Source: an uncultured Candidatus Saccharibacteria bacterium | Lineage (GTDB): Bacteria; Patescibacteriota; Minisyncoccia; Phycocordibacterales; UBA1550 | Length of the DNA: 64,000 nucleotides | NCBI GenBank assembly: GCA_964642305.1 | Contig: CAZXOE010000002.1 | Location: 50,300 to 114,299 of the forward strand | Direction of reading: 5' to 3' | In this document: positions 14,204 to 61,620 of the stretch, piece by piece | Layout of the letters: the number at the start of each line of letters is the position of its first letter | Numbering within the stretch: the stretch's first letter is position 1 | Made by a program: the position numbers and the translations under genes | Notes under the pieces: model-generated | Database searches by the model: none | The model's input: only the letters and a program-made list of their open reading frames with translations | Told to the model about the DNA's origin: nothing

Positions 14204-14815
14204 ATGGCATCCTTCGAAAATAAAAGAAAGAATCCATCCTCATCAAATATTAGGTTTGGTGAGGCCAGGGTCATTCACGATTTACAAGAACTTAAAACCG
14301 TAGTTAAGGGTTTTCAAGATGCTGGCTTGAAAATTGTATTCACTCAAGGCGTCTATGACCTACTTCATGAAGGGCACGGTAAGTATCTTGAGTTAGCAAA
14401 AGAGCAGGGTGATATTTTGGTTGTGGGTATTGATAGTGATGAGCTTACTCGTAAACGAAAAGGCCAAAATCGCCCCGTAGTTCCTGAAGATGAAAGAATC
14501 AGAATGCTTACTTTTTTGCGTTCTGTGGACATTGTTACATTGAGAACGTTGTCAGAGACAGAAAAGGATATGGGTTATCTACACAAAGCAATCCGTCCAG
14601 ATGTTTTTGTGATGTCTAAAACGACAAAAGATTGGCCAATTGAACAACAAAGAGAAACAGAAAAACATGTCGGAAAGATTAAAATTTTTAAGCCACAAGC
14701 GGAAACGTCTAGCAGTGCCAGAATCCGCCATTTGATGATTGATGGAGCAACCGGCCTCGGTGAGAGAATCAATGATTTAGTACGAGAGTATTACGACGAA
14801 ATTAAAAAAATATAA
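14204..14815 (+). CDS. cytidylyltransferase-like nucleotidyltransferase (HxGH motif)
   Basis: FTQGVYDLLHEGHGKYL resembles the RfaE-domain-II/TagD-type HIGH nucleotidyltransferases. Confidence 0.5.
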   Translation: MASFENKRKNPSSSNIRFGEARVIHDLQELKTVVKGFQDAGLKIVFTQGVYDLLHEGHGKYLELAKEQGDILVVGIDSDELTRKRKGQNRPVVPEDERIRMLTFLRSVDIVTLRTLSETEKDMGYLHKAIRPDVFVMSKTTKDWPIEQQRETEKHVGKIKIFKPQAETSSSARIRHLMIDGATGLGERINDLVREYYDEIKKI

Positions 14816-15663
14816 TGAAAAAACGTTCTGCAGTTATTGCATTTATTCCAGTTATACACAGAGGTTATATTGATTTTATAAAAAAAACCGGTGTAACTTC
14901 TTTGTATTTACTTGAAGCATCAGATGCACCTGAGTTAGATTATCTTTCACGAGAAATACGAGCACTTACATACGAAGAAGCAAAAAAACTTTTATCTGCA
15001 CTTGGCCTTGAAGTGCATAAGTTTTCTAAGCATGTAGAAGAGCTTTCTGTTTCGGATATCGAGCTTTATATGCCAAACGAGGATATTTGCCATAGTGTGC
15101 AAGAACGTTTTTTAAAAAAGAAGAACATAATATTTATTGATACTTTTTTGCGTTGGGACTGGAACAAAACAGTTGGCTTCACATTAGCTATTCCGGAGGC
15201 AGATAGAATTGTAAAAAAGGACACAAAAGAGGCTCTAGAAGTATCAAAATATATGGGTGAACTTTTTAAGCAAGTGAATAATAGTTCAGATTGGTGGAGA
15301 CAGATTTCAGCTACTATAGTTAGTAACGAAAATAAGGTTATCACGGCCTACAATAAGCATCTCCCGAATGAATACGTTCCTTATATAGATGGAGACCCAA
15401 GAAATAATTTTAAACCAGGAGAGCACGTTGATTTGTATACATCACTTCATGGCGAAGCAGCTACAATAGCTGAAGCAGCAAGAAAAGGAATTTCACTTGA
15501 TAATGCAGAGATGTACGTAACAACATTTCCTTGTTCTCTTTGCGCGAGTCAAATAGCTGCATCGGGAATAAAAAAAGTATTTTTTACTGGAGGGTATTCA
15601 AATCTTAATGGAGTAAAGACTATGCGCGACGCAGGAGTCGAACTTATCTACATAGAGCAATAG
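14815..15663 (+). CDS. CMP/dCMP-deaminase zinc-binding domain protein with a ~170-aa N-terminal extension
   Basis: C-terminal HGEAATIAEA...PCSLCASQI (H-x-E, PC-x-x-C). The N-terminal half is unassigned. Confidence 0.6.
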   Translation: MKKRSAVIAFIPVIHRGYIDFIKKTGVTSLYLLEASDAPELDYLSREIRALTYEEAKKLLSALGLEVHKFSKHVEELSVSDIELYMPNEDICHSVQERFLKKKNIIFIDTFLRWDWNKTVGFTLAIPEADRIVKKDTKEALEVSKYMGELFKQVNNSSDWWRQISATIVSNENKVITAYNKHLPNEYVPYIDGDPRNNFKPGEHVDLYTSLHGEAATIAEAARKGISLDNAEMYVTTFPCSLCASQIAASGIKKVFFTGGYSNLNGVKTMRDAGVELIYIEQ

Positions 15664-22269: not shown

Positions 22270-23005
22270 AAAGGGGTCAGGTACCTTTGATTTGTGATAT
22301 AGTCTTAGTATATAATACAAACATGCCACGACTACCACGCGTTGATGTTGGAGGAGAAATTTATCACGTCATTAATCGTGCAAATGCACGGTTGCCAATT
22401 TTTTTTAAAGAAGACGACTATAAACTTTTTGAGACAATTATTGAGGAAGCGCAGATTAAATTTGGTATGAGGATTCTCGCGTATTGTTTTATGCCAAATC
22501 ATTTTCATCTTGTATTACATCCAAACAGTGACGGTGATTTGCAGAAGTTTATGCAATGGCTCACGCTTACTCATACTCAACGCTGGCACACAAAAAATGG
22601 AACGACAGGAACTGGACATCTATATCAAGGACGATACAAGTCTTTTCTTGTCCAAGGCGACAGGCACTTACTTACTATTATTCGCTATGTAGAGAGAAAT
22701 CCACTGCGGGCAAAATTGGTCAAGAAAATTGAAAACTGGAATTTCTCAAGCCTCGCTAGGCGACTTTCTGGCAATCCTAAAAAGAATAAATTACTTGAAA
22801 AGTGGCCGATTGAAATGCCAAAGAATTATCTAGCCTTTGTGAACGAACCTATGAATAAAAATGAAGAAGATGTAATCAGGTACTCTGTTAATAGAAGCAA
22901 GCCTTTTGGATCGGACACATGGAGCAGTAGAATGATCGATAAGCACGGGCTAGAGGCGACGATGCGCAACAGGGGAAGACAAATCAAAGGTACCTGACCC
23001 CTTTG
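22270..23005 (+). mobile_element. IS200-like/RAYT unit bounded by 20-bp inverted repeats (AAAGGGGTCAGGTACCTTTG / CAAAGGTACCTGACCCCTTTG)
   Basis: The IRs at 22270-22289 and 22985-23005 are perfect reverse complements. The right IR overlaps the stop codon. Confidence 0.55.
22323..22997 (+). CDS. IS200/IS605-family Y1 (HUH) transposase, REP-associated tyrosine transposase-like
   Basis: HUH motif MPNHFHLVL and a catalytic Tyr region RYVERNPLRA. The TATATAATACAAAC promoter is fused to the ATG. Confidence 0.7.
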   Translation: MPRLPRVDVGGEIYHVINRANARLPIFFKEDDYKLFETIIEEAQIKFGMRILAYCFMPNHFHLVLHPNSDGDLQKFMQWLTLTHTQRWHTKNGTTGTGHLYQGRYKSFLVQGDRHLLTIIRYVERNPLRAKLVKKIENWNFSSLARRLSGNPKKNKLLEKWPIEMPKNYLAFVNEPMNKNEEDVIRYSVNRSKPFGSDTWSSRMIDKHGLEATMRNRGRQIKGT

Positions 23006-29035: not shown

Positions 29036-29096
29036 AAAATTCCCCGATACAAAAAAGCATCCGTAAGGATGCTTTTTTGTATCGGGGAATTTTCTT
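29036..29096 (+). terminator. long-stem intrinsic terminator after the giant gene
   Basis: ccccgatacaaaaaagcatcc-gtaa-ggatgcttttttgtatcgggg (21-bp stem) with flanking A/T runs. Confidence 0.7.
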
Positions 29097-29116: not shown

Positions 29117-29185
29117 GGCGTTTCCTATTCTGTCTGTCCTATTACCTATTTACATCTATAGATGTAAATAGGTAATAGGACAGGA
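29117..29185. repeat. palindrome containing CCTATTTACATCTATAGATGTAAATAGG
   Basis: Imperfect ~69-bp palindrome whose 28-bp core recurs at 29779-29808. Confidence 0.6.
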
Positions 29186-29763: not shown

Positions 29764-29778
29764 TGTTAAAAGTATACC

Positions 29779-29808
29779 TATTTACATCTATAGATGTAAA
29801 TAGGTATA
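29779..29808. repeat. 28-bp perfect palindrome CCTATTTACATCTATAGATGTAAATAGG (second copy)
   Basis: Identical core to 29140-29170. The pair brackets the PaaX-like gene. Confidence 0.6.
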
Positions 29809-46601: not shown

Positions 46602-46635
46602 GTGTTTATCGAGGGGAAATACGATGCCTAATGCG

Positions 46636-46693
46636 TCTTTGCGAGTACTCGAAGCAATCTACAGGTTCTGGATTGCTTCGAGTACTCGCAAAG
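46636..46693. repeat. 58-bp hairpin (23-bp stem) at the 3' end of ftsK, member of a dispersed repeat family
   Basis: tctttgcgagtactcgaagcaatc-tacaggttctg-gattgcttcgagtactcgcaaaga. It shares CGAAGCAATCTACRGGTT with 41925-41945. Confidence 0.6.
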
Positions 46694-46708
46694 ACCAGGT
46701 GGCGAGTC

Positions 46709-50040: not shown

Positions 50041-50107
50041 TAAGGCCCGGCCTCGGATACCAGAGCATAACCAAGGCCCGGCCTCGGGTACTCTCGAGGC
50101 CGGGCCT
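50041..50107. repeat. REP-like GC-rich palindromic doublet (AAGGCCCGGCCTCG...)
   Basis: aaggcccggcctcgg ... aaggcccggcctcgggtactctcgaggccgggcctt. Related to the palindromes flanking RAYT #2. Confidence 0.6.
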
Positions 50108-50869
50108 TATTATCCACACCTTACTCTCATCACCACTTGCTTGTTTCTTGCCCCATTTTCTGCTATTATATACCCGTGTGGAGAGGTTGGTAAGTATCGT
50201 TAAATGTGTCTGCATTCCGCATCCACTTTCAACTTCGAATCAGCTGATTCGTGGCTCGGCCATGAAAACTTTCAAGCGACTAGTTTGGAAGTTATCCACA
50301 CATATACTTTGCAGGTTAATCTTGCACCGTATATAATGTATGTAAGTTCAGTGCGTAGATTAATTTCTGCGTTACTGAATTTAGGCGTAGTGAATGTGTC
50401 CGCACATTTGCGCGTCATTAAAATAGAAACTCCCGGCTTACGATAGATTGCAAGCAAGGGGAGAGTCCATTGAAAACTAGGTCCGTTGCGAAAAGATATT
50501 CGCTGTATCCAAGGACTGCCATTGGGTACCCTCAAGGGCAGTCCTTGGATATCTTCTCGCACCGGATCTTGCATAGAAAACATATCTCACAATTAGGTAT
50601 GTTCTCATTGTTTGCTCGCATCTGCATTCTTGTCAGTTGCGAATCAGCTGATTCGTGTCTTGGACATAAAATTGTCCAGGTCAGTTGTCAGATGTATTTG
50701 CAAAGCAAATTTCTATGGCCTCGATCCGTGTGGTCGAAGCACTACCGCATGACCGACAAAACGACAGAATAAAAAAAGTTCACTTAATTAAAGTGTGCAC
50801 GAAAACCTTCCTCAACTGCAAAGACGAAGAGGGAGCACACTGTGCGATTAGAAACATATCAATTTATTT

Positions 50870-54124: not shown

Positions 54125-54318
54125 TTTTACTAGGGACTAAGTAACAACGAAAAGAGTCTTAGTCTCAAATTAGGTCAATGCGTCGCTTCAGAGAAATTAT
54201 CTCGAACGAGCTAAACCCAAAACGAAACTAACCTCCCTGCCCGCCACTGCCTGTCGCTCCTGAATTAGCAAATTCACGTCTTGGACGCAAATGAGCAGTT
54301 AGGCGATGGCAGGCGGGA

Positions 54319-54375: not shown

Positions 54376-54411
54376 CCAAGCTCCCCAAGGCCCGGCCTAT
54401 GTACATAGGCC
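54376..54411. repeat. 36-bp perfect palindrome CCAAGGCCCGGCCTATGTACATAGGCCGGGCCTTGG (REP-like, left of RAYT #2)
   Basis: Read directly; identical to 55109-55144. Confidence 0.85.
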
Positions 54412-54434
54412 GGGCCTTGGTATATAATACAAGC

Positions 54435-55088
54435 ATGAGGAAGCTCAATTTTTCTATTCATGAATACTACCATCTCTACAGTCGTGGTACCGACAAACGT
54501 ATTATATTTAGCGATGAAGAAGACAAGCAAAGATTTTTACATCTCTTGTATCTCTGTAATACTGACAGCAGTCTAATATTTAGAGAGATACCCATAGGCC
54601 GGGCCTATGAAGAGAGAAAAGGAGATACTTTGGTTAATATTGGAGCATATTGCATGATGCCAAATCACTTCCACCTACTTGTTAGAGAGAAGAAGGATGG
54701 TGGAATCACGAAATTTATGGGTAAATTACTAACATCGTATTCAATGTACTTTAACAAGAAATATAAGCGTACTGGGACTTTGTTTGAGAGTAGATTTAAG
54801 GCAAAGCATGCTAATGATGATAAATACTTGAAGTATTTATTTGCTTATATTCATCTAAACCCAGTTAAGATTATTGATCCAAAATGGAAGGAAAATGGGA
54901 TTAAGGATCGAGATAGTGCTGAGGAATATCTAGAAAGTTATCAATATTCGAGTTACGCGGATTACGTAGGCGACCATCGTAAGGAGAGCAACATCCTTAA
55001 TAAGCGAGTGTTTCCAGAGTATTTTTCAAAGCAGCAGGAATTTAAAGAATTCATAAAAGAGTGGCTATCCTATGGCAATATAGTGTAG
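54435..55088 (+). CDS. IS200-like Y1 (HUH) transposase / REP-associated tyrosine transposase (RAYT)
   Basis: HUH motif MPNHFHLLV and a Tyr region YIHLNPVK. The TATATAATACAAGC promoter is fused to the ATG. The ORF track's upstream extension is discounted. Confidence 0.7.
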   Translation: MRKLNFSIHEYYHLYSRGTDKRIIFSDEEDKQRFLHLLYLCNTDSSLIFREIPIGRAYEERKGDTLVNIGAYCMMPNHFHLLVREKKDGGITKFMGKLLTSYSMYFNKKYKRTGTLFESRFKAKHANDDKYLKYLFAYIHLNPVKIIDPKWKENGIKDRDSAEEYLESYQYSSYADYVGDHRKESNILNKRVFPEYFSKQQEFKEFIKEWLSYGNIV

Positions 55089-55108
55089 CCCCGAGGACTA
55101 CCAAACCA

Positions 55109-55144
55109 CCAAGGCCCGGCCTATGTACATAGGCCGGGCCTTGG
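55109..55144. repeat. 36-bp perfect palindrome, identical second copy (right of RAYT #2)
   Basis: Read directly. Confidence 0.85.
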
Positions 55145-55209
55145 TGGTAAAGTTATCCACAATAAAGTTAGGTGTTTCGGGGGTGGATTGGTAGAATTAG
55201 AGGAATTAT

Positions 55210-55851
55210 ATGAACGAAAATATAAAAGCGAAGATGATGAATGTATGGAGGATTTTTTGGAAAGTGGTAGCGGGTATTATTGCCATATTTGTCATCGTAA
55301 CCTTATTGCGTGTTCTGTATGTTTCAAAAAATACACCAGAGCAGGTAGCGAAAATTCATGCGACGAAACTCACTATGGATGATGTGATGGGGGTGAATTT
55401 ACCGCCTGACCCGGGTGTGGAAGCCGATAAAACTGTTGAAGGGATTGATGCCAATAAAAATGGCATCCGCGACGATGTAGAGCTCGCAATTTTCAAAGAG
55501 TACCCGAATTCGGCAAAAACTAGAGCTGTGCTATTGCAGTATGCGCTGGCGTTGCAGATGGAGGCAACACAACCATTCCCGAATAAAGAAACTGTTACTG
55601 AGGTGGTTAGAGAGCAAAGCAGATCAGGTTCATGTGTTGGCGACATACTTGTACCAAGAGAAAGTCCTGAATTTTCGAGAAGCTATTCTGATGTGGAAAA
55701 GATTTATATGTATATTAATTTTATTAAAGATAAACAACTTAATACTAACGAAAGGAAACAAGCAAGAAAGGATTTTGTTAGATATGTAGGAAGCTATAGT
55801 GAGTCAGAAAATGAGGTTTGTGATATTGATATTTCAGCGCTTCAAAACTAG
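55210..55851 (+). CDS. membrane-anchored hypothetical protein
   Basis: 213-aa ORF with an N-terminal TM. Confidence 0.4.
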   Translation: MNENIKAKMMNVWRIFWKVVAGIIAIFVIVTLLRVLYVSKNTPEQVAKIHATKLTMDDVMGVNLPPDPGVEADKTVEGIDANKNGIRDDVELAIFKEYPNSAKTRAVLLQYALALQMEATQPFPNKETVTEVVREQSRSGSCVGDILVPRESPEFSRSYSDVEKIYMYINFIKDKQLNTNERKQARKDFVRYVGSYSESENEVCDIDISALQN

Positions 55852-59325: not shown

Positions 59326-59326
59326 T

Positions 59327-59370
59327 CCCCATAGGTCCGACCTCTGTCTACAGAGGTCGGACCTATGGGG
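59327..59370. repeat. 44-bp perfect palindrome (CCCCATAGGTCCGACCTCTGT|AGACAGAGGTCGGACCTATGGGG), REP-like / terminator
   Basis: Read directly. The half-site is related to CATAGGCCGGGCC of the RAYT palindromes. Confidence 0.7.
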
Positions 59371-59477
59371 AGACCCGTGGGGAAAAGTTATCCACAATTA
59401 GGATAAGGACGAGCTAGGGGATTGGATGTGCGGTTGGTATAATACAAGTAATATTAGCAAAATAATTTTGGATATTT

Positions 59478-59984: not shown

Positions 59985-60021
59985 CCTCAGAAAGAGTCTC
60001 AGAAACACCCGAAAAAACAAA

Positions 60022-60070
60022 ATAAAAAGGACCGCCCTTTTTGAATTCTTAAGGGCGGTCCTTTTTATTT
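60022..60070. terminator. intrinsic terminator
   Basis: aaaggaccgccc-tttttgaattctt-aagggcggtccttt plus TTTTT. Confidence 0.6.
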
Positions 60071-60169
60071 TGTTGCTTTTGGCTGTTTCTGAGCGATTTA
60101 CATAGGGTAATACTATGTAAATCAGTAAGGCCTTGCTGTTTTTGTTAAAAATGTGGTATAATATATAAA

Positions 60170-61558: not shown

Positions 61559-61620
61559 ATTGCACTCCAAAAGAAAAACCCAAGGAAACTCCTTGGGTTT
61601 TTCTTTTGGAGTGCAATATT
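61559..61620 (+). terminator. strong intrinsic terminator after rplL (26-bp stem)
   Basis: ttgcactccaaaagaaaaacccaagga-aa-ctccttgggtttttcttttggagtgcaa. Confidence 0.7.

What the first reader, a model, noticed from the sequence alone, without database searches (positions are those of the whole stretch)
54376..55144. RAYT/IS200-like transposase flanked by two identical 36-bp perfect palindromes
CCAAGGCCCGGCCTATGTACATAGGCCGGGCCTTGG occurs at 54376-54411 and 55109-55144, bracketing a 218-aa HUH/Y1 transposase (MPNHFHLLV...YIHLNP). Related GC-rich palindromes occur at 50041-50107 (doublet), at 59327-59370, and as a half-site inside the transposase CDS (ccataggccgggcctatg, 54594-54611). These are GC-rich hairpins in an AT-rich genome, associated with a Y1 transposase. 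That is the signature of a REP/RAYT system, which is rarely reported in reduced CPR-like genomes.
Basis: partly seen in the sequence, partly recalled or inferred. Interest (0 to 1): 0.6.

Follow-up and report, generated by a model that had tools for sequence, protein, structure and literature searches.

The report
Resident hairpin-flanked Y1 transposase-like gene
A small candidate-phyla-radiation (CPR) bacterium carries a transposase-like DNA-cutting gene that stays at one chromosomal position and has matching DNA hairpins in its promoter, inside its coding sequence and after its stop codon; this is a previously undescribed, CPR-wide variant of the known REP/RAYT kind of system, not a hopping insertion sequence.

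Summary
Two identical 36-bp perfect palindromes (54385-54420, not 54376-54411; 55109-55144) bracket a 217-aa HUH/Y1 gene (54435-55088). A related palindrome lies inside the CDS (54593-54609). Related hairpins lie at 50043-50108 and 59326-59371.

The protein is a class-2 Y1 enzyme (NHFH ... YIHLNP). Its predicted fold is closest to E. coli RAYT bound to a REP hairpin. By sequence it is far closer to TIRYT/subclass-2.1-type proteins than to E. coli RayT or IS200 TnpA.

In 80 homologous CPR loci, upstream and downstream hairpins match each other in 43 of 50 loci (permutation mean 2.6). About 46% of loci also carry a cognate copy at a fixed position inside the CDS. The upstream hairpin sits on the -35 region of a leaderless promoter. 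Gene order around the gene is conserved (FtsK ... rplJ/rplL), so the gene is a resident, not a mobile IS.

Not supported: a dispersed high-copy REP population (one satellite locus in about 74 kb) and a GT[AG]G guide.

Verdict: a REPtron/TIRtron-like module, a new variant of a known kind. The nuclease and autoregulation mechanisms are inferred.

The parts
54385..54420 (.). Left 36-bp perfect palindrome (long form: two inverted 18-nt arms, CCAAGG-CCCGG-CCTATGT / ACATAGG-CCGGG-CCTTGG). It overlaps the -35 region of the gene's promoter.
   Evidence: Exact match. Inverted repeat I13. DNA fold -21.2 kcal/mol, z -7.9.
54400..54428 (+). Promoter-like site: -35 TGTACA (54400-54405, the centre of the palindrome), 17-nt spacer, -10 TATAAT (54423-54428). 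The ATG follows 6 nt later, which implies a leaderless mRNA.
   Evidence: Consensus scan, 10 of 12 matches. The same -10-N6/7-ATG geometry occurs in 43 of 80 homologous loci, and only 2 of 80 have an SD-like motif.
54435..55088 (+). Y1/HUH gene, 217 aa. HUH = H78-F79-H80 (54666-54674). Y motif = Y138-I-H-L-N-P (54846-54863). C-terminal YSSY tail.
   Evidence: Pfam Y1_Tnp 1.5e-10. NCBIfam REP_Tyr_transpos 44.8 bits, below cut-off. N77, H78, H80, Y134, Y138 and N142 invariant in 120 homologues. AF2 pLDDT 89.9. Best PDB match 4er8_A.
54593..54609 (.). In-CDS palindrome CATAGG-CCGGG-CCTATG. It equals the inner part of a flanking arm and encodes I53-G-R-A-Y57 in a loop N-terminal to the HUH motif.
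   Evidence: A cognate in-CDS copy at the same place (<= 2 mismatches) occurs in 32 of 70 homologous loci, against a null of 5%. The loop is a ~17-aa insertion relative to the TIRYT-type paralogue. pLDDT is lower here.
55105..55148 (.). Right palindrome. It contains the same 36-mer (55109-55144), extended to 44 bp, and starts 17 bp after the stop codon. No T-tract follows it.
   Evidence: DNA fold -27.3 kcal/mol, z -9.9. No terminator-like call.
50043..50108 (.). Satellite copy 4.3 kb upstream, directly after the stop of the 290-aa gene. It comprises an extra left arm (50043-50057) plus a full hairpin AAGG-CCCGG-CCTCG / CGAGG-CCGGG-CCTT (50073-50108).
   Evidence: Fold -26.8 kcal/mol, z -6.6.
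59326..59371 (.). Hairpin of the same architecture but a different sequence (CATAGG-TCCGA-CCTCTGT / ACAGAGG-TCGGA-CCTATG), directly after the stop of the 1155-aa gene. It is nearly identical to the gene-flanking hairpin of a sister lineage (L207 9878-9917).

Best explanation
This is a REPtron/TIRtron-like module. It consists of a chromosomally resident, vertically inherited class-2 Y1 (HUH) single-strand DNA nuclease/transposase gene, of the RAYT/TIRYT lineage rather than IS200, together with its own cognate DNA hairpins.

Shown:
- The gene has an intact HUH/Tyr active-site signature and a RAYT-like fold.
- It keeps the same chromosomal position across many CPR lineages.
- In most lineages, hairpins of the form (N)2-6-C-A-AGG-N5-CCT-T-G-(N')2-6 lie about 20-50 bp upstream of the start and 0-60 bp downstream of the stop. 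In about half of lineages one also lies at a fixed in-frame position in the CDS.
- These copies are the same within a locus and differ between loci.

Inferred:
- The protein binds these hairpins when they form in single-stranded DNA, during replication or transcription.
- It cuts and rejoins beside them through a 5'-phosphotyrosine intermediate at Y138, as E. coli TnpA-REP and IS608 TnpA do.
- Because it acts mainly in cis, this copies and homogenises the hairpins around its own gene and occasionally seeds a copy a few kb away (50.0 kb, 59.3 kb).
- The upstream hairpin covers the -35 region of the gene's leaderless promoter, so binding there most likely represses the gene's own transcription.
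For: Protein identity:
- Pfam Y1_Tnp.
- All 34 aligned members hit NCBIfam REP_Tyr_transpos and none hits the IS200 model.
- The motifs NHFH, LFESRF and YIHLNPVK parallel E. coli RayT EHMH, IWQPRF and YIYINPVK.
- Catalytic residues are invariant in 120 homologues.
- The AF2 model (pLDDT 89.9) matches 4er8_A, RAYT bound to a REP hairpin, best: E 3.8e-6, TMt 0.67, ahead of the IS608 and ISDra2 TnpA structures.
- hhalign against the TIRYT-type paralogue in the same window gives probability 99%, E 2e-18.

Cognate hairpins:
- 55 of 80 loci have an upstream hairpin, 56 of 80 a downstream one, and 66 of 80 at least one.
- Upstream and downstream cores are identical in 43 of 50 loci (permutation mean 2.6, max 9). 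The internal core is identical to a flanking core in 22 of 27 loci (mean 2.0, max 7).
- An internal copy with <= 2 mismatches occurs in 32 of 70 loci. The null is 5%, and a control CDS segment gives 0 of 70.
- Two paralogues on one contig (L142) each have their own hairpin family.
- Cognate-core density is 4.4/kb within 260 bp of the gene and <= 0.06/kb beyond 1 kb.

Residency:
- The order FtsK-C2-C1-Y1-(C3)-C5-C9-rplJ-rplL is shared by about 22 of 50 long loci. These include homologues at 53-58% identity.
- There is a single copy of this family in about 74 kb and no tnpB partner.

Promoter.
Against: - There is no biochemical evidence. Cleavage sites and the strand used are unknown.
- No conserved guide tetranucleotide lies beside the hairpins.
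- Loop (N5) orientation relative to the gene is random (UP 40 Y / 38 R). That fits symmetric double-stranded operator recognition as well as hairpin recognition.
- The protein fails the NCBIfam RAYT equivalog cut-off (44.8 against 80 bits). A profile of the family finds no PDB sequence at E <= 10.
- Dispersal, the hallmark of REPs, is nearly absent in the sampled 74 kb.
- Between close relatives the gene diverges faster than its housekeeping neighbours: Y1 64% against L10 93% and FtsK 90%. In-situ allele replacement therefore cannot be excluded.
Confidence: 0.62

Rival explanations
1. Operator-only model. The Y1 protein, or another factor, recognises the palindromes as double-stranded symmetric operators. 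The module would then be an autoregulated gene whose product has a host function unrelated to copying hairpins. Matching copies would be maintained by selection for binding, not by nuclease-mediated copying.
For: - The hairpins are near-perfect palindromes with conserved half-sites CAAGG/CCTTG around a 5-bp centre.
- Loop orientation is random.
- The upstream copy sits on the -35 region of a conserved leaderless promoter.
- There are almost no dispersed copies.
Against: - The N5 centre, which a dimeric operator reader would not need, is copied faithfully among the up, internal and down sites of a locus.
- Copies downstream of the stop codon, copies inside the CDS and satellites kb away have no obvious operator role.
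- The HUH and Tyr catalytic residues are invariant in 120 homologues, which argues for retained nuclease chemistry.
- Long forms are two inverted units, as in REPINs.
Confidence: 0.2
2. Autonomous IS200/IS605-type insertion sequence. The two palindromes would be the left-end and right-end hairpins of a mobile unit that transposes as a single-stranded circle.
For: - Pfam names the domain 'Transposase IS200 like'.
- Identical hairpins bracket the gene.
- About half of the homologous loci lie in other gene contexts, and Y1 lies on either side of the C3 gene in different lineages.
Against: - The Y motif is Y---NP, not the Y---Q of IS200 TnpA.
- There is no hit to NCBIfam transpos_IS200.
- The best fold match is RAYT.
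- The 20-kb synteny is conserved down to 53-58% identity.
- There is one copy in 74 kb and no tnpB.
- The ends are perfect, identical palindromes rather than distinct imperfect LE/RE hairpins.
- The upstream hairpin doubles as the promoter -35 region.
Confidence: 0.08
3. The hairpins are generic intergenic structures, such as terminators, mRNA stabilisers or sites for an unrelated factor, and merely happen to flank a Y1 gene.
For: - All hairpins outside the CDS lie directly after stop codons of + strand genes.
- Two clearly terminator-like hairpins (60016-60074, 61559-61617) share the AAGG-N5-CCTT core.
Against: - The flanking palindromes have no T-tract and no terminator call.
- There is locus-specific co-variation of the up, internal and down copies across 80 loci.
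- A copy inside the CDS cannot be a terminator.
- Paralogue-specific hairpins occur on one contig.
Confidence: 0.05

Closest known systems
REPtron: E. coli rayT (TnpA-REP, Quentin subclass 2.2 / Bertels group 2) with its flanking REP/BIME sequences
   Same: - Single-copy, vertically inherited HUH/Y1 gene with the Y---NP motif, flanked on both sides by cognate palindromic hairpins.
- Long forms are two inverted units, like REPINs.
- Each paralogue has its own hairpin family.
- The predicted fold is closest to 4ER8 (PMC6006769, PMC3479197).
   Different: - No 5' GT[AG]G guide.
- No high-copy dispersed population in the sampled 74 kb.
- Sequence similarity to RayT is barely detectable (hhalign probability 6%).
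- Below the NCBIfam equivalog cut-off.
- The protein is longer (217 against 165 aa), with a conserved C-terminal tail.
- It has a hairpin at a fixed in-CDS position and one on the promoter -35 region.
TIRtron / TIRYT (Di Nocera 2013) = TnpAY1 subclass 2.1 (Quentin 2018) = RAYT group 1 (Bertels 2017)
   Same: - The key motifs match Table 1 of PMC6006769 for subclass 2.1: NH[YF]H, Y[IV]HLNP, an SS-containing tail, and a length of about 220-240 aa.
- hhalign against the TIRYT-type paralogue in the same window gives 99% probability.
- Flanking repeats have low genomic copy number.
- Some published TIRs are self-complementary (PMC3733652).
   Different: - Subclass 2.1 was reported to have no REP-like hairpins. 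Its TIRs carry GGGGWSAS, which the target's hairpins lack but the paralogue at 22.3 kb has.
- The target family has a ~17-aa loop insertion that carries the in-CDS hairpin.
- Pfam detects no C-terminal HTH.
TnpAY1 subclass 2.4 (Cyanobacteria/Bacteroidetes) with REPs inserted in frame inside tnpA-REP
   Same: A cognate hairpin lies inside the coding sequence without breaking the frame, in a surface loop (PMC6006769 section 12).
   Different: [quoted passage not shown] Here the site is fixed, N-terminal to the HuH motif (aa 53-57), and is kept in the same frame across lineages.
- Subclass 2.4 REPs carry GT[AG]G feet. These do not.
IS200/IS605 TnpA (IS608, ISDra2)
   Same: - HUH/Y1 fold (Foldseek E about 2e-4).
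- Hairpins next to both gene ends.
- Presumably ssDNA chemistry.
   Different: - Y---NP instead of Y---Q.
- No IS200 model hit.
- Single resident copy in conserved synteny.
- Identical perfect palindromes instead of distinct LE/RE hairpins.
- No tnpB.

Membership tests
TnpAY1 class 2 (RAYT/TnpA-REP-like sensu Quentin et al. 2018) | HuH motif plus Y motif of the form Y---NP (class 1 / IS200 has Y---Q) | tested here: met
   NHFH (aa 77-80) and YIHLNP (aa 138-143). N77, H78, H80, Y138 and N142 are invariant in 120 homologues. The definition comes from PMC6006769.
TnpAY1 class 2 (RAYT/TnpA-REP-like sensu Quentin et al. 2018) | Low copy number per genome and no IS features (no tnpB, no near-identical copies) | tested here: inconclusive
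   There is one copy of this family and one 26%-identical paralogue in 64 kb, and no tnpB neighbour. The whole genome is not available.
RAYT proper (NCBIfam NF047646 REP_Tyr_transpos equivalog; E. coli RayT type) | Score at or above the curated cut-off of 80 bits | tested here: not met
   44.8 bits. All 34 family members are sub-threshold, while E. coli RayT scores 179.
RAYT proper / REPtron | Gene flanked on both sides by cognate palindromic hairpins | tested here: met
   Identical 36-mers at 54385-54420 and 55109-55144. Flanks match in 43 of 50 homologous loci.
RAYT proper / REPtron | Canonical REP: 5' GT[AG]G tetranucleotide at the foot of the hairpin | tested here: not met
   7 of 252 hairpin feet (2.8%), against 4.8% in random 12-mers of the same loci. 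None is at the window's hairpins.
RAYT proper / REPtron | The same hairpin is present as a dispersed, high-copy intergenic family (REP/REPIN population) | tested here: inconclusive
   Only one satellite with the same core (50043-50108) in about 74 kb. Density beyond 1 kb is <= 0.06 cores/kb over 386 kb of homologous loci.
RAYT proper / REPtron | Structural similarity to TnpA-REP bound to a REP hairpin (PDB 4ER8) | tested here: met
   Top Foldseek hit is 4er8_A: E 3.8e-6, TM 0.52/0.67. It is a model-based comparison, at 15% identity.
TIRYT / subclass 2.1 / RAYT group 1 | Motifs NH[YF]H and Y[IV]HLNP, a C-terminal tail with an SS motif, and a length of about 238 aa | tested here: met
   NHFH, YIHLNP, YSSY (aa 171-174), 217 aa. 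hhalign against the TIRYT-type paralogue gives probability 99%. The comparison with the published table was by inspection only.
TIRYT / subclass 2.1 / RAYT group 1 | Flanking long terminal inverted repeats, commonly with GGGGWSAS, and no REP-like hairpins | tested here: not met
   The target is flanked by hairpins without GGGGWSAS. By contrast, the paralogue at 22323-22997 has 25-bp TIRs with GGGGTCAG.
TIRYT / subclass 2.1 / RAYT group 1 | C-terminal helix-turn-helix domain (Bac_DnaA_C, HTH_23 or HTH_28-like) | tested here: not met
   Pfam at E <= 1 finds only Y1_Tnp. The model shows short helices at 144-211. A remote HTH is not excluded.
IS200/IS605 insertion sequence | TnpA with Y---Q and a match to the IS200 transposase model | tested here: not met
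   YIHLNP. No NF033573 hit at E <= 0.01 for any of the 34 members.
IS200/IS605 insertion sequence | Mobile: variable genomic context and multiple near-identical copies | tested here: not met
   Conserved 20-kb synteny in about 22 of 50 long loci and in L207 and L112. Single copy in the sampled DNA.

The most novel reading that the evidence does not exclude
A CPR-wide family of domesticated Y1 nucleases (about 890 clusters at 50% identity) forms a self-referential three-hairpin module. The enzyme's cognate DNA hairpin is built into its own promoter (-35 region), into a fixed loop-coding position of its own reading frame, and into its 3' end, and all three evolve in concert. If the enzyme really acts on these sites, the gene would carry its own substrate inside its coding sequence. 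That would be a built-in autoregulatory or self-editing (recombination or switch) circuit, and a minimal REP system that maintains itself without a dispersed population. Subclass 2.1-like Y1 proteins were previously reported to have no hairpins at all.
Probability: 0.3. Interest if true: 0.75.

Novelty: new variant of a known kind. Interest (0 to 1): 0.55.

Why it matters
RAYT/REP systems are the textbook case of a domesticated transposase co-evolving with short DNA hairpins. They have been studied almost only in Proteobacteria and Cyanobacteria, and the largest Y1 subclass (2.1 / group 1) has no known DNA partner.

Here a 2.1-like family that is widespread in CPR/Patescibacteria shows clear, statistically supported cognate hairpins with a simple consensus (CAAGG-N5-CCTTG). 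One copy is at a fixed in-frame position and one is on the promoter.

- This gives a directly testable substrate for an uncharacterised enzyme class.
- It gives a minimal model for how protein and hairpin specificities co-evolve.
- It corrects the annotation of thousands of CPR 'transposase' genes, which are residents in a conserved position next to the rplJ-rplL cluster and not evidence of active IS elements in reduced genomes.

Tried and rejected
- **Genome-wide count.** It did show that the same stem occurs as a dispersed hairpin family in other CPR genomes (Collierbacteria, Saccharibacteria). No Y1 gene lay in those blocks.\n- **PDB by sequence.** phmmer and a 34-sequence profile found no meaningful hit. 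Only the fold search was informative. The afdb50 library was unavailable.\n- **Guide tetranucleotide.** No GT[AG]G enrichment and no conserved base outside the stems.\n- **Strand or orientation rule for the loops.** None found. Upstream and downstream copies are in inverted or direct orientation about equally often.\n- **TTATCCACA (DnaA-box-like) as part of the element.** Rejected as element-specific. It often abuts the hairpins (19 of 58 within 40 bp), but two thirds of the boxes are far from any hairpin, and boxes lie 30-42 bp upstream of -10 boxes of unrelated genes.\n- **Rfam.** Nothing above gathering score. The sub-threshold microRNA-type hits are generic hairpin matches.\n- **Intrinsic terminator reading of the flanking palindromes.** No T-tract and no terminator call.\n- **Housekeeping-level conservation.** Rejected. 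Y1 is 64% identical where L10 is 93% and FtsK 90%.\n- **Organism name.** The cluster look-up returned no names. The CPR/Parcubacteria-type assignment rests on named homologues (Yonathbacteria, Niyogibacteria).\n- **Extending the source genome.** A 10-kb extension downstream added no hairpins.
Full report
**1. Observation**

The 36-mer CCAAGGCCCGGCCTATGTACATAGGCCGGGCCTTGG occurs exactly twice in the window, at 54385-54420 and 55109-55144. No match was expected in 100 dinucleotide-preserving shuffles. The right copy is part of a 44-bp perfect palindrome, 55105-55148.

Between the two copies lies one ORF. The longest reading starts at 54306 (260 aa; this is also the database gene call P0001) and runs through the left palindrome. 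All homologues start at the position of ATG 54435, which gives 217 aa.

- A half-site at 50043-50057 plus a full hairpin at 50073-50108.
- A hairpin at 59326-59371.
- CATAGGCCGGGCCTATG inside the CDS at 54593-54609.

GGCCSGGCC occurs 8 times against 0.21 expected, all between 50.0 and 55.2 kb. As single-stranded DNA the flanking hairpins fold at -21 to -27 kcal/mol, with z-scores of -8 to -10. The in-CDS hairpin folds at -5.6 kcal/mol. The window is about 43% GC.

**2. The protein**

- Pfam: Y1_Tnp, E 1.5e-10.
- NCBIfam: the only hit is REP_Tyr_transpos, at 44.8 bits against a cut-off of 80. The same holds for all 34 aligned family members. None hits the IS200 transposase model.
- Motifs: NHFH (aa 77-80), LFESRF and YIHLNPVK (aa 138-145). 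These parallel EHMH, IWQPRF and YIYINPVK of E. coli RayT.
- In the classification of Quentin et al. 2018 (PMC6006769), Y---NP defines class 2 (RAYT-like) and Y---Q defines IS200. The combination NH[YF]H, Y[IV]HLNP, an SS tail and about 238 aa is listed for subclass 2.1 (Bertels group 1, the 'TIRYT' of Di Nocera 2013).
- N77, H78, H80, Y134, Y138 and N142 are invariant in 120 homologues.
- Sequence searches of the PDB found no meaningful hit.
- An AlphaFold model (pLDDT 89.9) matches 4er8_A best. That entry is E. coli RAYT bound to a REP hairpin (E 3.8e-6, TM 0.52/0.67). It ranks ahead of the IS608, ISDra2 and IS200 transposases (E >= 1.9e-4).
- Profile comparison with E. coli RayT is weak (probability 6%).
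- Profile comparison with a second Y1 gene in the same window (22323-22997) is strong (probability 99%, E 2e-18, 171 columns).
- That paralogue is a typical TIRYT. It is flanked by 25-bp terminal inverted repeats (22270-22294 and 22980-23004) that contain GGGGTCAG, which fits the published GGGGWSAS motif.
- Relative to the paralogue, the target family has a ~17-aa insertion (about aa 41-57). This is the loop that carries the in-CDS palindrome. The model is least confident there.

**3. The family and its hairpins**

The family is large.
- A word-indexed search gave 7,693 hits. The 120th best is still 59% identical, and named hits are Yonathbacteria, Niyogibacteria or 'Patescibacteria group'.
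- An exhaustive profile search of 1.84 billion representatives gave 890 clusters at E <= 1e-30.

I fetched 80 homologous loci from metagenomes, one from a genome collection (L112) and one from a 349-kb contig (L207).

In most of them the gene is bracketed by palindromes, about 20-50 bp upstream of the start and 0-60 bp downstream of the stop. The hairpin sequences differ between loci but share one architecture:
- A stem of 6-17 bp ends in C-A-A-G-G, followed by five central bases and then C-C-T-T-G.
- 'Long forms', like the window's 36-mer, are two such units in inverted orientation (L122, L123, L149, L154, L207). This is the geometry of a REPIN.

With a deliberately simple detector ([>= 3 bp]AGG-N5-CCT[>= 3 bp]), the counts were:

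| Hairpin position | Loci (of 80) |
|---|---|
| Upstream | 55 |
| Downstream | 56 |
| At least one | 66 |

Several of the remaining loci have hairpins of the same build with another core (L144, L150, L189, L142).

Co-variation is strong:

| Comparison | Observed | Control |
|---|---|---|
| Upstream and downstream AGG-N5-CCT cores identical, in either orientation | 43 of 50 loci | across-locus permutation: mean 2.6, max 9 |
| In-CDS core identical to a flanking core | 22 of 27 loci | permutation: mean 2.0, max 7 |
| Flanking 15-mer found at +130 to +195 of the CDS with <= 2 mismatches | 32 of 70 loci | cores from other loci 5%; another segment of the same CDS 0 of 70 |

The in-CDS copy is always in the same reading frame. 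It codes (Q/I)-G-x-x-(L/Y), for example IQGLPLD or IGRAY, so the peptide changes with the hairpin.

On contig L142 two paralogues lie 5 kb apart, and each has its own hairpin family. This is the rule described for RAYTs.

No GT[AG]G guide is associated with the hairpins (7 of 252 feet against 4.8% in controls), and no base outside the stem is conserved. The orientation of the asymmetric centre relative to the gene is random.

**4. Promoter**

The consensus scan places a -35 hexamer TGTACA at 54400-54405, the exact centre of the left palindrome. A 17-nt spacer follows, then a -10 TATAAT at 54423-54428, six bases before the ATG.

Across the family:
- 53 of 80 loci have a >= 5/6 TATAAT hexamer ending 3-12 nt before the start codon, with a sharp mode at 6-7 nt (43 loci).
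- Only 2 of 80 have a Shine-Dalgarno-like motif.
- The hairpin centre lies mostly 20-30 bp upstream of the -10 box.

The gene is therefore most likely expressed as a leaderless mRNA from a promoter whose -35 region is the hairpin. Autoregulation through this site is an inference.

**5. Resident or mobile**

An all-against-all comparison of flanking ORFs shows a conserved order: FtsK(-) - C2 (HTH protein) - C1 (large PG-binding surface protein) - Y1 - (C3) - C5 (large beta-helix protein) - C9 - rplJ - rplL.
- About 22 of 50 long loci share this order, including L112 at 53% identity.
- L207 (58% identity) shares the whole 20 kb, from EF-P and RecA to rplL.

No tnpB is adjacent. There is one gene of this family in the window plus 10 kb. 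This excludes a plain, currently hopping IS200-type element.

Two caveats apply:
- In different lineages the gene lies on either side of C3.
- Between close relatives it diverges faster than housekeeping neighbours. Window against L123: L10 93%, FtsK 90%, Y1 64%. Fast co-evolution with the hairpins, or in-situ allele replacement, is therefore possible.

**6. Dispersal**

This is the weak point of the REP reading.
- In the window all copies of the cognate core lie within 4.4 kb of the gene.
- Ten further kb downstream (L204) add none.
- Over all loci the density of cognate cores is as follows:

| Distance from the gene | Cognate cores per kb |
|---|---|
| within 260 bp | 4.4 |
| 260-1000 bp | 0.14 |
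| 1-6 kb | 0.007-0.06 |
| beyond 6.1 kb (51 kb, window only) | 0 |

Satellites do exist:
- The 50.0-kb copy.
- Examples in L123, L137 and L161.
- The 59.3-kb hairpin, which is nearly identical to the hairpin that flanks the Y1 gene in the sister lineage L207. It looks like a copy of a hairpin type that was, or elsewhere still is, gene-cognate.

Hairpins with the very same stem (AAGG-CCCGG-CCTTG...) are dispersed at ten or more sites in a Collierbacteria genome and at several sites in a Saccharibacteria genome. I could not link them to a Y1 gene.

**7. Interpretation**

The best-supported reading is a REPtron/TIRtron-like module of a resident class-2 Y1 enzyme.

Shown:
- The enzyme class.
- Residency in a conserved chromosomal position.
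- The three-site hairpin architecture and its co-variation.
- The overlap with the promoter.

Inferred from the biochemistry of TnpA-REP and IS608 TnpA (PMC3479197, PMC3333891):
- The protein binds the hairpins in single-stranded DNA, then cuts and rejoins beside them.
- Acting mainly in cis, it keeps the local copies identical and rarely seeds new ones.

Rivals are rated in the corresponding fields:
- An operator-only role for the palindromes.
- An autonomous IS.
- Unrelated terminators.

**8. Novelty**

The kind is known (REPtrons, TIRtrons, and REPs inserted in subclass 2.4 genes). The following were not found in the literature I could search:
- A CPR-wide family nearest to subclass 2.1, which was reported to lack hairpins, with clear cognate hairpins.
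- A CAAGG-N5-CCTTG architecture without a GTAG foot.
- A fixed in-frame copy N-terminal to the HUH motif.
- A copy that forms the -35 region of a leaderless promoter.

I rate it a new variant of a known kind, of moderate interest.

Noticed in passing
window 22270-23004: A second, divergent Y1/HUH gene (22323-22997, 224 aa, 26% identical to the target). It is flanked by perfect 25-bp terminal inverted repeats, AAAGGGGTCAGGTACCTTTGATTTG at 22270-22294 and its reverse complement at 22980-23004, which overlaps the stop codon. The TIRs contain GGGGTCAG, the GGGGWSAS motif of published TIRYT/TIRtrons. Each TIR is itself self-complementary (CAAAGG-N9-CCTTTG). The gene uses the same leaderless promoter string, GTATATAATACAAaCATG.
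   Followed up: partly
window 23503, 32706, 50110, 50292, 55153, 56994(-), 59388, 62600; homologous loci L122-L201: The perfect DnaA-box-like 9-mer TTATCCACA occurs 8 times in the window (0.47 expected). In 503 kb of homologous CPR loci it occurs 58 times (about 3.8 expected). Six window copies are intergenic, 30-42 bp upstream of TGGTAnAAT -10 boxes. 19 of the 58 lie within 40 bp of a Y1-type hairpin, mostly 0-8 bp. It looks like a general promoter-upstream element of these genomes. Its binding factor is unknown.
   Followed up: partly
window 1-64000: All 18 occurrences of AGG-N5-CCT lie between 42.8 and 61.6 kb. None lies in the first 42 kb. Shuffles give about 11.5 spread evenly. It is unclear whether this is avoidance elsewhere or local enrichment.
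   Followed up: no
window 60016-60074 and 61559-61617: Two long perfect hairpins directly after genes (the 168-aa gene and rplL), with A-tracts and T-tracts like bidirectional terminators. They nevertheless have the same AAGG-N5-CCTT core as the Y1 hairpins: AAGG-ACCGC-CCTT / AAGG-GCGGT-CCTT, and CCCAAGG-AAACT-CCTTGGG.
   Followed up: no
L207 9878-9917 versus window 59326-59371: The hairpin that flanks the Y1 gene in a syntenic sister lineage (CCATAGGTCGGACCTCTGTATACAGAGGTCCGACCTATGG) is almost identical to the window's 'diverged' hairpin after the 1155-aa gene. This suggests turnover of hairpin types, with older copies left behind.
   Followed up: partly
L142 5945-6665 and 11281-12026: Two Y1 paralogues of the family lie 5 kb apart on one contig. 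Each is bracketed by its own hairpin type: TACATAG-N7-CTATGTA for one and GCAAGAAC-N-GTTCTTGC for the other.
   Followed up: yes
L048, L087, L090, L116, L120 (Collierbacteria JACRNH01); L043, L053, L110 (Saccharibacteria CAZBVQ01): Dispersed families of long hairpins with the same stem as the window's palindrome. Collierbacteria has AAGGCCCGGCCTTGC-loop-GCAAGGCCGGGCCTT, at least 10 copies with variants CCTGG, CTTGG and TCCAA. Saccharibacteria has CCAGGCCCGGCCTAGAA...TTCTAGGCCGGGCCTGG in 3 copies. No Y1 gene lies in the fetched 8-kb blocks.
   Followed up: partly
window 29134-29183 and 29773-29808; also 29036-29093, 2840-2899, 46635-46695: Other long perfect palindromes unrelated to the Y1 hairpins. 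Two of them share the unit TATAGATGTAAATAGGTA and lie 600 bp apart after the 1802-aa gene.
   Followed up: no
L204 10694-17400 (about 63.5-70 kb in window-equivalent coordinates): Downstream of the window's last gene there is a stretch without protein calls other than a LAGLIDADG homing-endonuclease ORF (14425-14934). This is probably an rRNA operon with an intron-encoded endonuclease.
   Followed up: no
window 55210-55851 (C3 family) and homologous loci: A ~210-270-aa membrane-anchored protein with no Pfam hit is the most constant direct neighbour of the Y1 gene. It lies upstream of it in some lineages, downstream in others, and on both sides in L190.
   Followed up: no
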